From NCBI RefSeq assembly GCF_013315695.1, contig NZ_CP054353.1: a stretch of DNA of 64,000 nucleotides; one strand, given 5' to 3'. The DNA comes from Escherichia coli. Its GTDB lineage: Bacteria; Pseudomonadota; Gammaproteobacteria; Enterobacterales; Enterobacteriaceae. Positions 32,701 to 35,700 of this stretch are shown one piece after another; position 1 is the first letter of the stretch; each line of letters opens with the position of its first letter. The position numbers are program-made.

Positions 32701-35700
32701 GAAGAAGTAAGATAATTATAAACGTAAATTTAATATCTCCCACTGACATCTCCCCCACAATACACTAAAAAATACTCACAGCAGTAAACACAGACACACC
32801 TGATAATCATACAGCCGATAAATATTTTCCCCTTTACGGAGAAATCAGCCTGCTGTTTAACAATAACGGCGTATTTTCATGGAAGGAGATCACCCAGTAA
32901 CGGATAAGTCCTGATCTCCTTCATGTTAATACGCAACAATCCCATCGATTCAAAACAATTTCAGACAGATATTATCTCCGTGAATCCCCCGCCACCTTTC
33001 CGGTGCGCGGGGTTTTGTCTTTTTTCACCGGGAATACATGTATGAATCCGTCTGATGCCATTGAGGCAATTGAAAAACCGCTCTCCTCCCTGCCTTACTC
33101 ACTTTCCCGTCACATCCTGGAACATCTGCGCAAACTCACCAGTCACGAACCCGTGATTGGCATTATGGGTAAAAGCGGGGCCGGTAAATCCTCACTCTGT
33201 AATGCACTGTTTCAGGGGGAGGTCACCCCGGTCAGTGATGTTCACGCCGGCACCCGGGAAGTGCGGCGCTTCCGTCTGAGTGGCCACGGTCACAGCATGG
33301 TTATCACTGACCTGCCCGGGGTGGGCGAGAGCCGGGACAGGGATGCAGAGTATGAAGCCCTGTACCGTGACATTCTGCCCGAACTGGACCTGGTGCTGTG
33401 GCTGATTAAAGCCGATGACCGCGCCCTGTCTGTGGATGAGTATTTCTGGCGACACATCCTGCACCGGGGACATCAGCAGGTGCTGTTTGTGGTGACGCAG
33501 GCCGACAAAACGGAGCCCTGCCATGAATGGGATATGGCCGGCATTCAGCCTTCTCCCGCACAGGCACAGAACATTCGGGAGAAAACGGAGGCGGTATTCC
33601 GTCTGTTCCGGCCCGTACATCCGGTTGTTGCCGTATCGGCCCGCACCGGCTGGGAACTGGATACGCTGGTCAGTGCGCTAATGACAGCACTTCCCGACCA
33701 TGCCGCCAGTCCCCTGATGACCCGCCTGCAGGACGAGCTGCGCACGGAATCTGTCCGCGCTCAGGCCCGTGAACAGTTTACCGGTGCGGTGGACCGGATA
33801 TTTGACACGGCGGAGAGCGTCTGTGTTGCCTCTGTTGCCCGTACGGTTCTGCGTGCCGTCCGTGACACGGTGGTCTCTGTTGCCCGCGCTGTATGGAACT
33901 GGATTTTCTTCTGAACAGTCTGCCAGGGAAATGCCTGATAACATTACGTTAACCAACTGAAAACATGACACAAACCCCTCATACTCCTCCTGTTTCTCTT
34001 GCGTGACCGCCTTGTCATTAATAGAATAAAACGATCGATAAAACAGGTATCTATCGTTGCTATCGATCGTTTATAGTGGTTAATGGTCTGCGAAAAGGCA
34101 GCTGAATCTCTTCATCATGCAGAACGGAATTGCACACAACGGACTGATACTTCTCTGGCGGATGAGAGAGGGGAAGCATTTATGTCCGGGAAAAACCACT
34201 TTATCTGAGCATGCTGTTTTGTACCTGCCGGTATCCACATTTGTGGGTACCGGCTTTTTTATTCACCCTCTGTAAGGAAAAGCTGATGAAACGACATCTG
34301 AACACCAGCTACAGGCTGGTATGGAATCACATTACGGGCACCCTGGTGGTGGCCTCCGAACTGGCCCGCTCACGGGGAAAACGCGCTGGTGTGGCGGTTG
34401 CGCTGTCTCTTGCTGCTGTCACATCAGTCCCGGCACTGGCTGCTGACAAGGTTGTACAGGCGGGAGAAACCGTGAACGACGGAACACTGACAAATCATGA
34501 CAACCAGATTGTCCTCGGTACGGCCAACGGAATGACCATCAGTACCGGTCTGGAGTATGGGCCGGATAACGAGGCCAATACCGGCGGACAATGGATACAA
34601 AATGGCGGTATCGCCAACAACACTACTTTCACCGGTGGTGGTCTTCAGAGAGTGAATGCCGGAGGAAGCGTTTCAGACACGGTTATCAGTGCCGGAGGCG
34701 GACAGAGCCTTCAGGGGCAGGCAGTGAACACCACTCTGAACGGCGGTGAGCAGTGGGTACATGAAGGCGGGATTGCAACGGGTACCGTCATTAATGAGAA
34801 GGGCTGGCAGGCCATCAAATCCGGCGCAGTGGCAACCGACACGGTTGTGAATACCGGCGCGGAAGGGGGACCGGATGCGGAAAATGGTGATACCGGGCAG
34901 ACCGTCTACGGAGATGCCGTACGCACCACCATCAATAAAAATGGTCGTCAGATTGTGGCTGCTGAAGGAACGGCAAATACCACTGTGGTTTATGCCGGCG
35001 GCGACCAGACTGTACATGGTCACGCACTGGATACCACGCTGAATGGGGGGTACCAGTATGTGCACAACGGCGGTACGGCGTCTGGCACTGTTGTAAACAG
35101 TGACGGCTGGCAGATTGTCAAAAACGGGGGTGTGGCCGGGAATACCACCGTTAATCAGAAGGGCAGACTGCAGGTGGACGCCGGTGGTACAGCCACGAAT
35201 GTCACCCTGAAGCAGGGCGGCGCACTGGTTACCAGTACGGCTGCAACCGTTACCGGCATAAACCGCCTGGGAGCATTCTCTGTTGTGGAGGGTAAAGCTG
35301 ATAATGTCGTACTGGAAAATGGCGGACGCCTGGATGTGCTGACCGGACACACAGCCACTAATACCCGCGTGGATGATGGCGGAACGCTGGATGTCCGCAA
35401 CGGTGGCACCGCCACCACCGTATCCATGGGAAATGGCGGTGTACTGCTGGCCGATTCCGGTGCCGCTGTCAGTGGTACCCGGAGCGACGGAAAGGCATTC
35501 AGTATCGGAGGCGGTCAGGCGGATGCCCTGATGCTGGAAAAAGGCAGTTCATTCACGCTGAACGCCGGTGATACGGCCACGGATACCACGGTAAATGGCG
35601 GACTGTTCACCGCCAGGGGCGGCACACTGGCGGGCACCACCACGCTGAATAACGGCGCCATACTTACCCTTTCCGGGAAGACGGTGAACAACGATACCCT

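What the first reader, a model, noticed from the sequence alone, without database searches (positions are those of the whole stretch)
34031..34070. GATC-containing dyad upstream of the antigen 43 gene
Two GATC sites 32 bp apart sit within inverted arms ACGATCGATA and TATCGATCGT about 220 bp upstream of flu. Antigen 43 phase variation is known to depend on competition between Dam methylation of GATC sites and OxyR binding in the leader. The central position between the two sites reads GTATC rather than GATC. If the canonical region has three GATC sites, this allele would have lost one, which could shift the ON/OFF equilibrium.
Basis: partly seen in the sequence, partly recalled or inferred. Interest (0 to 1): 0.4.

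Follow-up and report, generated by a model that had tools for sequence, protein, structure and literature searches.

The report
Antigen 43 switch missing one Dam site
This is the well-known DNA-methylation/OxyR on-off switch in front of the E. coli antigen 43 adhesin gene, in a rare natural version where a single G-to-T change has removed the middle of its three methylation sites, which probably biases the switch but has not been tested.

Summary
GATC sites at 34033-36 and 34065-68 lie 32 bp apart in a perfect dyad, whose arms are actually 12 nt long (34029-40 and 34061-72). The dyad sits at the start of the 253-nt leader of an intact agn43 gene (ATG 34286).

The region is collinear with the K-12 Dam/OxyR operator, which has GATC-I, II and III spaced 19 and 13 bp apart. 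All nine sampled alleles of the same upstream class read GGTATCGATCGTT where the window reads GGTATCTATCGTT. So T34052 is a G-to-T substitution that destroys GATC-II, leaving TATC at 34052-55.

The variant is rare: 6 of about 3183 complete E. coli genomes that carry this region, and 1 of 120 metagenome contigs. It sits on at least five different haplotype and agn43-allele backgrounds, so it has most likely arisen repeatedly. Other single-site losses also occur, including AATC, GACC and GATT at site II and TATC at sites I and III.

The change lies one base outside a conserved OxyR half-site (34053-67). I therefore infer that OxyR binding is kept while one methyl block is lost, giving an OFF-biased or less stable switch. 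That direction is untested. This is a new allelic variant of a known system and of modest interest.

The parts
33042..33914 (+). Upstream neighbour: a YeeP-like GTPase family gene, the conserved left flank of agn43 islands
   Evidence: ORF list. Annotated as a GTPase family protein in AF3 and all sampled genomes. NCBIfam gives weak GTPase matches.
33999..34004 (+). Putative -35 hexamer TTGCGT (3 of 6 matches), 17-nt spacer to the -10
   Evidence: Sequence. It occupies the same position as TTGTCC in K-12. It was not picked up by the consensus scan, so it is inferred from position only.
34022..34027 (+). Putative -10 hexamer TAGAAT, overlapped by OxyR half-site A
   Evidence: Identical in K-12 and in all sampled alleles. 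It ends 5 nt before the inferred transcription start.
34021..34035 (+). OxyR half-site A, ATAGAATAAAACGAT. It matches 8 of 10 positions of the dimer consensus ATAGnTnnnAnCTAT, and its 3' end holds the GAT of GATC-I.
   Evidence: Consensus scan. Identical to K-12 L001 1806-1820. Assigning it as an OxyR contact is an inference.
34033..34036 (.). GATC-I (Dam site). Its G at 34033 is the inferred transcription start (+1).
   Evidence: The MG1655 annotation starts isrC at the G of GATC-I. From memory, Wallecha et al. 2002 place the agn43 start at that G; the paper was not retrievable.
34052..34055 (.). TATC, the former GATC-II (+20 to +23), inactivated as a Dam target by G-to-T at 34052
   Evidence: Ungapped homology to K-12 GATC-II. 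Nine of nine sampled alleles read GATC here.
34053..34067 (+). OxyR half-site B, ATCGTTGCTATCGAT (8 of 10 matches). It is bounded by the ATC of former GATC-II and the GAT of GATC-III.
   Evidence: All consensus positions are identical to K-12 L001 1838-1852. The design of a half-site spanned by two GATCs 13 bp apart is the one described for gtr (PMC2909390). Hypervariability falls mainly at the consensus 'n' positions 34057 and 34059-61.
34065..34068 (.). GATC-III (Dam site, +33 to +36)
   Evidence: It lies 32 bp from GATC-I, as in K-12.
34029..34072 (.). The dyad: perfect 12-nt arms at 34029-40 and 34061-72 with 20 nt between. It reflects the symmetry of the operator between sites I and III.
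   Evidence: the repeat finder I1. In canonical alleles the arm TATCGATCGT occurs twice, at sites II and III, and T34052 breaks the inner I-II dyad.
34033..34267 (+). agn43 5' leader, equivalent to the IsrC/IS102 RNA
   Evidence: Rfam RF00124 IS102, 66.1 bits against a gathering score of 46, E = 6e-10, at 34031-34267. [quoted passage not shown]
34227..34260 (+). Intrinsic-terminator hairpin in the leader (12-bp stem, 8 G-C pairs, then TTTTTT)
   Evidence: It is the best-conserved block between the K-12 and window leaders.
34286..37405 (+). agn43 (flu) coding sequence, 1039 aa, intact
   Evidence: ORF list. NCBIfam NF033177 auto_Ag43, 1898.5 bits against a cutoff of 1200. Annotated as agn43 in AF3.

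Best explanation
The dyad is the Dam/OxyR phase-variation operator of the antigen 43 gene. It starts at the transcription start and covers the first 40 nt or so of the leader.

Two OxyR dimer half-sites are present: A at 34021-35, which overlaps the -10 hexamer, and B at 34053-67. They lie three helical turns apart. Bound OxyR would block RNA polymerase, giving the OFF state. Dam methylation of the GATCs at the ends of the half-sites would keep OxyR off, giving the ON state.

In this allele a G-to-T change at 34052 has turned the middle site, GATC-II, into TATC. Half-site B can now be methylated at only one end. The substitution lies one base outside the 15-bp half-site and leaves ATCG intact. 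I therefore infer that OxyR still binds, while full methylation at sites I and III excludes it less well. The ON state should then be less stable and the population OFF-biased, or switching faster, rather than the switch being abolished.

Shown here: the identity of the element, the loss of GATC-II, its rarity, and its recurrence on different backgrounds. Inferred: the transcription start, the half-site frames, and the direction of the phenotypic shift.
For: - **Homology to K-12.** The window aligns without gaps to K-12 with the same 19 + 13 bp site geometry.
- **Conserved half-sites.** Half-sites A and B are identical at every consensus position between the K-12 class and the window class, while the 17 bp between them have diverged.
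- **Transcription start.** isrC in MG1655 starts at the G of GATC-I. Rfam IS102 matches 34031-34267.
- **Gene intact.** The downstream Ag43 gene is complete.
- **Substitution.** Nine of nine sampled alleles have GATC at 34052-55.
- **Census.** About 3039 records match the canonical 39-mer exactly, and 6 genomes match the T version. Among 120 metagenome contigs, 116 have all three GATC sites.
- **A real variant, not an error.** The same 401-nt haplotype occurs in AF3 (UK, blood), MSB1_4I (Australia, rectal swab) and metagenome contig L107.
- **Recurrence.** Each T haplotype is 0-7 differences from a G haplotype but 4-17 differences from any other T haplotype. The site needs 6 Fitch steps for 6 minority haplotypes. 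The flanking 2.4 kb is only 94-97% identical among carrier groups.
- **Gene still under use.** The Ag43 ORF is intact in 5 of the 6 carriers.
- **Design precedent.** OxyR half-sites spanned by two GATCs 13 bp apart, with methylation lowering OxyR affinity, are described for gtr (PMC2909390).
- **Natural precedents.** Loss of one GATC abolishes gtr phase variation in S. Typhi, and restoring it restores the variation (PMC5364305). Natural operator variants retune opvAB (PMC12902445).
Against: - No binding, methylation or expression data exist for this allele.
- The 37-bp OxyR tetramer consensus scan is ambiguous: three frames score 13 of 20. In one frame (34040) T34052 falls inside a recognition element and creates CTAT. 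OxyR contacts could also extend to the flanking base.
- In the S. Typhi gtr precedent, loss of a GATC produced uniformly ON cells, not OFF, so the direction depends on context.
- The mutagenesis papers on the K-12 GATC sites (Wallecha 2002, Waldron 2002, Kaminska 2010) could not be read. I cannot cite measured effects of a GATC-II mutation.
- All carriers are tip lineages at 0.2% frequency, which is equally consistent with a mildly deleterious or neutral transient variant.
Confidence: 0.55

Rival explanations
1. The substitution is functionally silent, or nearly so. Two Dam sites, one in each OxyR half-site, are enough for normal phase variation, and T34052 is a transient neutral or slightly deleterious polymorphism.
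For: It is very rare and found only in tip lineages: 6 of about 3183 genomes. Other single-site losses occur at similarly low frequency (AATC 6, GACC 3, GATT 1, site I TATC 2), as expected for mutation-selection balance. The upstream region is generally mosaic and homoplasic.
Against: The three GATCs are kept in more than 96% of sampled alleles, while the 5-nt spacer beside them is hypervariable with 16 variants in 120 contigs. This indicates purifying selection on each site and therefore a fitness-relevant effect of losing one. In gtr, loss of one GATC abolishes phase variation.
Confidence: 0.25
2. The substitution weakens OxyR binding, either because the G is a contact or because it affects DNA shape or bending in the operator. 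The allele would then be ON-biased or locked ON.
For: The base directly abuts half-site B. The natural gtr family 3 allele lacking one GATC is uniformly expressed. Mutations inside operators commonly reduce repressor affinity.
Against: The 15-bp half-site ATCG...CGAT is unchanged. In the alternative frame the change raises the consensus match from 12 to 13 of 20 by creating CTAT. Among the site II variants tested, changes at the G (12 genomes) outnumber changes inside ATC (4 genomes). All four losses seen in metagenomes are also at the G. Both patterns fit variants that spare OxyR recognition. The gtr case changed TC to AA inside the half-site, which is a different kind of lesion.
Confidence: 0.12
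3. The main effect is at the RNA level. The change at +20 alters the 5'-terminal stem-loop of the agn43 leader (IsrC) and so affects leader stability or antitermination rather than OxyR/Dam competition.
For: With G, the 5' arm GAUCGAUA pairs with the site II arm, giving an 8-bp stem and 7-nt loop. With U, it pairs with the site III arm instead. Expression is reported to depend on antitermination of IsrC (PMC5389530).
Against: The predicted energies are almost the same: -71.4 versus -72.1 kcal/mol for the 230-nt leader. A 5' stem of the same 8 bp forms in both cases. The terminator hairpin at 34227-54 is unaffected. The K-12 leader uses a different 5' hairpin, so this structure is not conserved.
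Confidence: 0.05
4. T34052 is a sequencing or assembly error at a methylated motif.
For: Dam motifs are known trouble spots for some long-read basecallers (from general knowledge, not tested here).
Against: The same base is present in six independently produced complete genomes from different laboratories and years, and in a short-read-style metagenome contig. The identical 11-mer context at GATC-III (TATCGATCGTT) is unaffected in all of them.
Confidence: 0.02

Closest known systems
E. coli K-12 agn43 (flu) Dam/OxyR phase-variation operator (Henderson & Owen 1999; Haagmans & van der Woude 2000; Waldron 2002; Wallecha 2002)
   Same: The position relative to the gene, the -10 hexamer and the start at GATC-I are the same. 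Half-sites A and B are identical at consensus positions. Sites I and III are 32 bp apart. The leader has the same IsrC-type terminator.
   Different: GATC-II is TATC. The 17 bp between the half-sites and most of the leader belong to a different sequence class, found in about 3445 of 5426 genomes; K-12 aligns only from query position 323 of the 401-nt query, about window 34222. The published statement that agn43 allelic groups all have three GATC sites (PMC2808357) does not hold for this allele.
Salmonella gtr (P22, LT2, Typhi) Dam/OxyR phase variation
   Same: OxyR dimer half-sites are each spanned by a pair of GATCs 13 bp apart. Methylation lowers OxyR affinity. A natural allele lacking one GATC exists, and it loses phase variation (PMC2909390, PMC5364305).
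   Different: gtr has three half-sites and two alternative OxyR positions, one activating and one repressing, with four GATCs. agn43 has a single repressing position. The Typhi lesion (GAAA) alters bases inside the half-site, whereas here only the flanking G is changed.
Salmonella opvAB Dam/OxyR switch and its natural promoter variants
   Same: Population-genomic surveys found recurrent point variants in the operator, and these were shown to retune the ON fraction (PMC12902445).
   Different: opvAB has four OxyR sites and four GATCs, and OxyR acts as an activator. The variants tested there were in OxyR sites, not GATC losses in agn43.

Membership tests
agn43 Dam/OxyR phase-variation operator | Lies at the promoter and start of the leader of an Ag43/Cah-family autotransporter gene | tested here: met
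   The downstream ORF 34286-37405 matches NF033177 auto_Ag43 at 1898 bits against a cutoff of 1200. Synteny of GTPase, operator and agn43 holds in every sampled genome.
agn43 Dam/OxyR phase-variation operator | Three GATC sites spaced 19 and 13 bp within the OxyR-protected region | tested here: not met
   Only GATC-I (34033) and GATC-III (65) are present. The site II position reads TATC. The geometry of the two remaining sites, 32 bp apart, is canonical.
agn43 Dam/OxyR phase-variation operator | OxyR recognition sequence overlapping the GATCs and the promoter | tested here: inconclusive
   Two 15-bp half-sites each match 8 of 10 positions, are conserved with K-12 and are spaced 32 bp apart. 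The 37-bp tetramer consensus gives three equal frames at 13 of 20. No footprint is available.
agn43 Dam/OxyR phase-variation operator | Sigma-70 promoter with transcription starting at the G of GATC-I | not testable with these tools
   Inferred from the identical -10 hexamer TAGAAT and from the MG1655 isrC annotation starting at that G. The consensus promoter scan found nothing.
agn43 Dam/OxyR phase-variation operator | OxyR binding blocked by Dam methylation, with differential methylation in ON and OFF cells | not testable with these tools
   This needs EMSA or footprinting and SMRT or nanopore methylation calls on carrier strains.
IsrC / IS102 leader RNA (Rfam RF00124) | Covariance-model match above the gathering score, with a terminal intrinsic terminator | tested here: met
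   66.1 bits against 46, full model 1-206, at 34031-34267. Terminator hairpin at 34227-54 followed by a T-run. The 5' hairpin of the model is not well kept: non-canonical pairs are flagged.

The most novel reading that the evidence does not exclude
Single-base loss of one Dam site, mostly by changing the G that lies just outside the OxyR half-site, may be a recurrent and selected route by which E. coli lineages hard-wire or retune the epigenetic Ag43 switch. Under this reading the window allele (G34052T) is an OFF-biased or fast-switching version that arose independently at least five times.
Probability: 0.25. Interest if true: 0.5.

Novelty: new variant of a known kind. Interest (0 to 1): 0.3.

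Why it matters
Ag43 phase variation is a textbook example of an epigenetic switch, and the literature treats the three-GATC layout as universal among alleles. A natural two-site allele carried by clinical isolates with an intact adhesin gene gives a ready-made test of how the number of methylation sites sets switch stability. It would also matter for reading Ag43 expression, aggregation and biofilm phenotypes in the carrier strains. The practical consequence is small: it is one rare allele of a well-understood system.

Tried and rejected
- **Gapped alignment to K-12.** MAFFT placed a 13-nt insertion and equated the window's second GATC with K-12 GATC-II, which would imply loss of site III. I rejected this. 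The ungapped alignment keeps the 32-bp I-III spacing, and intermediates from nine other alleles show GATC at 34052-55.
Rejected, because GTATC is present in three-site alleles too.
- **Fixing the OxyR register with the 37-bp Toledano consensus.** The result was ambiguous, with three frames at 13 of 20. I fell back on half-sites conserved with K-12.
- **'Only the G of GATC ever changes'.** Four of four metagenome variants suggested this. Targeted searches then found GACC in 3 genomes and GATT in 1 at site II, so it holds only as a predominance.
- **Recombination as the source of T on several backgrounds.** This is unlikely. The window and MS21-1 haplotypes differ at 34017 and 34059, so a conversion tract would have to be shorter than about 42 bp. 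It is not excluded, because the region is generally homoplasic.
- **Primary mutagenesis papers.** Wallecha 2002 and 2003, Kaminska 2010, Wallecha 2014 and Casadesus & Low 2006 are not held in the library. Statements taken from them are from memory and marked as such.
- **Viral and GTDB scans with the operator pattern.** These gave one hit each and no useful variation.
- **RNA-level effect.** The predicted energy difference is only 0.7 kcal/mol.

Full report
**Observation**

The sequence is as described. ACGATCGATA lies at 34031-40 and TATCGATCGT at 34061-70, with GATC at 34033-36 and 34065-68, 32 bp apart. The repeat finder extends the dyad to perfect 12-nt arms at 34029-40 and 34061-72, with 20 nt between them. 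These are the only GATCs within about 500 bp on either side. By my arithmetic, a perfect 12-nt inverted repeat with a spacer of 50 nt or less is expected about 0.2 times in 64 kb. This one is also conserved across thousands of genomes, so it is not a chance feature.

**Surroundings**

A 1039-aa ORF runs from 34286 to 37405. It matches the NCBIfam Ag43/Cah equivalog at 1898 bits against a cutoff of 1200. Upstream is a YeeP-like GTPase gene at 33042-33914. Rfam's IS102/IsrC model matches 34031-34267 at 66 bits against a gathering score of 46. The match ends in an intrinsic-terminator hairpin at 34227-54 followed by a T-run. [quoted passage not shown]

The whole region is 99.6-99.9% identical to islands in E. 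coli AF3 and MSB1_4I. In AF3 the island also carries the fec operon, a capU-virK-lpxM cluster and a CP4-44-like YeeU/CbtA module.

**Comparison with the characterised operator**

In MG1655 the three GATC sites start at L001 1818, 1837 and 1850, spaced 19 and 13 bp. The annotated isrC RNA starts at the G of GATC-I. This agrees with my recollection that Wallecha et al. 2002 mapped the agn43 start to that G and an OxyR(C199S) footprint to -16 to +42; that paper could not be retrieved.

MAFFT introduced a 13-nt gap. The ungapped alignment is the correct one. It preserves the 32-bp I-III spacing and aligns K-12 TATCGATCGTT with window TATCTATCGTT.

The decisive evidence comes from alleles of the window's own upstream class, which is present in about 3445 of 5426 complete E. 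coli genomes. Nine sampled alleles, including Nissle, O104:H4 and O157:H7 cah, all read GGTATCGATCGTT where the window reads GGTATCTATCGTT. T34052 is therefore a G-to-T substitution that destroys GATC-II.

**Frequency**

A 39-mer covering 34020-34058 matches exactly in 6 of about 3183 genomes that carry the region: PCN061, MS 21-1, 6EVA, AF3, MSB1_4I and ES2. The canonical version matches in about 3039 records.

A metagenome scan with NNNN at all three GATC positions returned 120 contigs:

| Configuration | Contigs |
|---|---|
| All three GATC intact | 116 |
| TATC at site II (the window haplotype, L107) | 1 |
| AATC at site II | 1 |
| AATC at site I | 1 |
| TATC at site III | 1 |

Targeted searches in complete genomes gave these counts:

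| Site and variant | Genomes |
|---|---|
| Site II TATC | 6 |
| Site II AATC | 6 |
| Site II GACC | 3 |
| Site II GATT | 1 |
| Site II GGTC | 0 |
| Site I TATC | 2 |

The 5-nt spacer next to site II has 16 variants among the 120 contigs. So the GATCs are selectively maintained in a region that otherwise varies freely. The literature statement that agn43 allelic groups carry three GATC sites (PMC2808357) is true for more than 96% of alleles, but not for all of them.

**Recurrence**

The six carriers fall into at least five backgrounds. The window, AF3, MSB1_4I and L107 share one 401-nt haplotype. MS 21-1, PCN061, 6EVA and ES2 differ from it by 4-17 positions. They carry different agn43 alleles, 2847 versus 3120 bp, with 89-97% flanking identity.

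Each T haplotype is closer to a G haplotype (0-7 differences) than to any other T haplotype. On a neighbour-joining tree the site needs 6 steps for its 6 minority haplotypes. A conversion tract would have to be shorter than about 42 bp to explain this, so repeated mutation is the better reading. The region is generally homoplasic, however, and four of the five T haplotypes were found by searching for T.

The variant is not a sequencing artefact. It recurs in independent assemblies, and the identical 11-mer context at site III is never affected in the carriers. The Ag43 ORF is intact in 5 of the 6 carriers.

**Mechanism**

Two 15-bp blocks each match the OxyR dimer consensus ATAGnTnnnAnCTAT at 8 of 10 positions. 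Block A is 34021-35, ATAGAATAAAACGAT, and overlaps the -10 hexamer TAGAAT. Block B is 34053-67, ATCGTTGCTATCGAT. Both are identical at every consensus position to K-12, while the 17 bp between them have diverged.

Their 32-bp start-to-start spacing fits the extended binding mode of reduced OxyR. This is my recollection of Toledano 1994; PMC2909390 uses the same argument for gtr. Each GATC puts its methylatable adenines at the outer two consensus positions of a half-site. Half-site B is spanned by sites II and III, 13 bp apart, which is the arrangement described for the gtr half-sites.

T34052 lies one base 5' of half-site B, so the recognition sequence is unchanged but one end of B can no longer be methylated. 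I infer that OxyR still binds, and that methylation at I and III alone excludes it less well. This would destabilise the ON state and bias the population towards OFF, or speed up switching.

The inference has weak points. The full 37-bp consensus is ambiguous, with three frames at 13 of 20; in one of them the T creates CTAT and raises the score from 12 to 13. The natural gtr allele lacking one GATC is uniformly ON, although it alters bases inside the half-site. I could not read the K-12 GATC mutagenesis papers. An RNA-level effect looks minor: the 5' stem repairs with the site III arm, and the energy difference is 0.7 kcal/mol.

**Verdict**

The element is the known agn43 Dam/OxyR switch in a rare, apparently recurrent, two-GATC allelic form. 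That form does not appear in the literature I could search. Natural operator variants that retune Dam/OxyR switches have been shown in Salmonella for opvAB and gtr, so the kind of variation is known. Interest is modest. It offers a clean natural experiment on how site number sets switch stability, and a caveat for Ag43 phenotyping in carrier strains.

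Noticed in passing
window 34057-34061: The 5 nt between the site II position and GATC-III are hypervariable across alleles, with 16 variants in 120 metagenome contigs, while the neighbouring GATC bases almost never change. Four of these five positions (34057 and 34059-61) coincide with 'n' positions of the OxyR half-site consensus. The fifth, 34058, is the consensus T and varies least.
   Followed up: partly
window 34227-34260: A strong intrinsic terminator lies inside the agn43 leader, 26 nt before the ATG. It is the end of the IsrC/IS102 RNA and the best-conserved block between the otherwise divergent K-12 and window leaders.
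   Followed up: partly
L141 (JAIJJM010000733.1, 1126-1180): The only hit to the agn43 operator pattern among the GTDB species representatives is a 1.56-kb contig of a 'Collinsella sp.' MAG. This is almost certainly an E. coli fragment binned by mistake.
   Followed up: no
window 45705-50000 and beyond: Downstream of the CP4-44-like YeeU/CbtA module, the AF3 annotation shows a 2.9-kb SNF2-related gene followed by a gene of more than 3 kb for a site-specific DNA methyltransferase. This may be a defence or modification system on the same island.
   Followed up: no
window 32150-32347: There is an indel or rearrangement relative to AF3 and metagenome contig L107 just upstream of the GTPase gene. 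MSB1_4I is collinear through it.
   Followed up: no
window about 5250-18980: The same island carries a capU-virK-lpxM (msbB2-like) cluster with a polysaccharide deacetylase gene, and a complete fecIRABCDE ferric-citrate operon, with IS elements on either side of and between them (AF3 annotation).
   Followed up: no
L012 (PCN061) 6267-7527: In one T-variant carrier the agn43 gene is a frameshifted, truncated pseudogene, so in that lineage the operator change has no adhesin to regulate.
   Followed up: no
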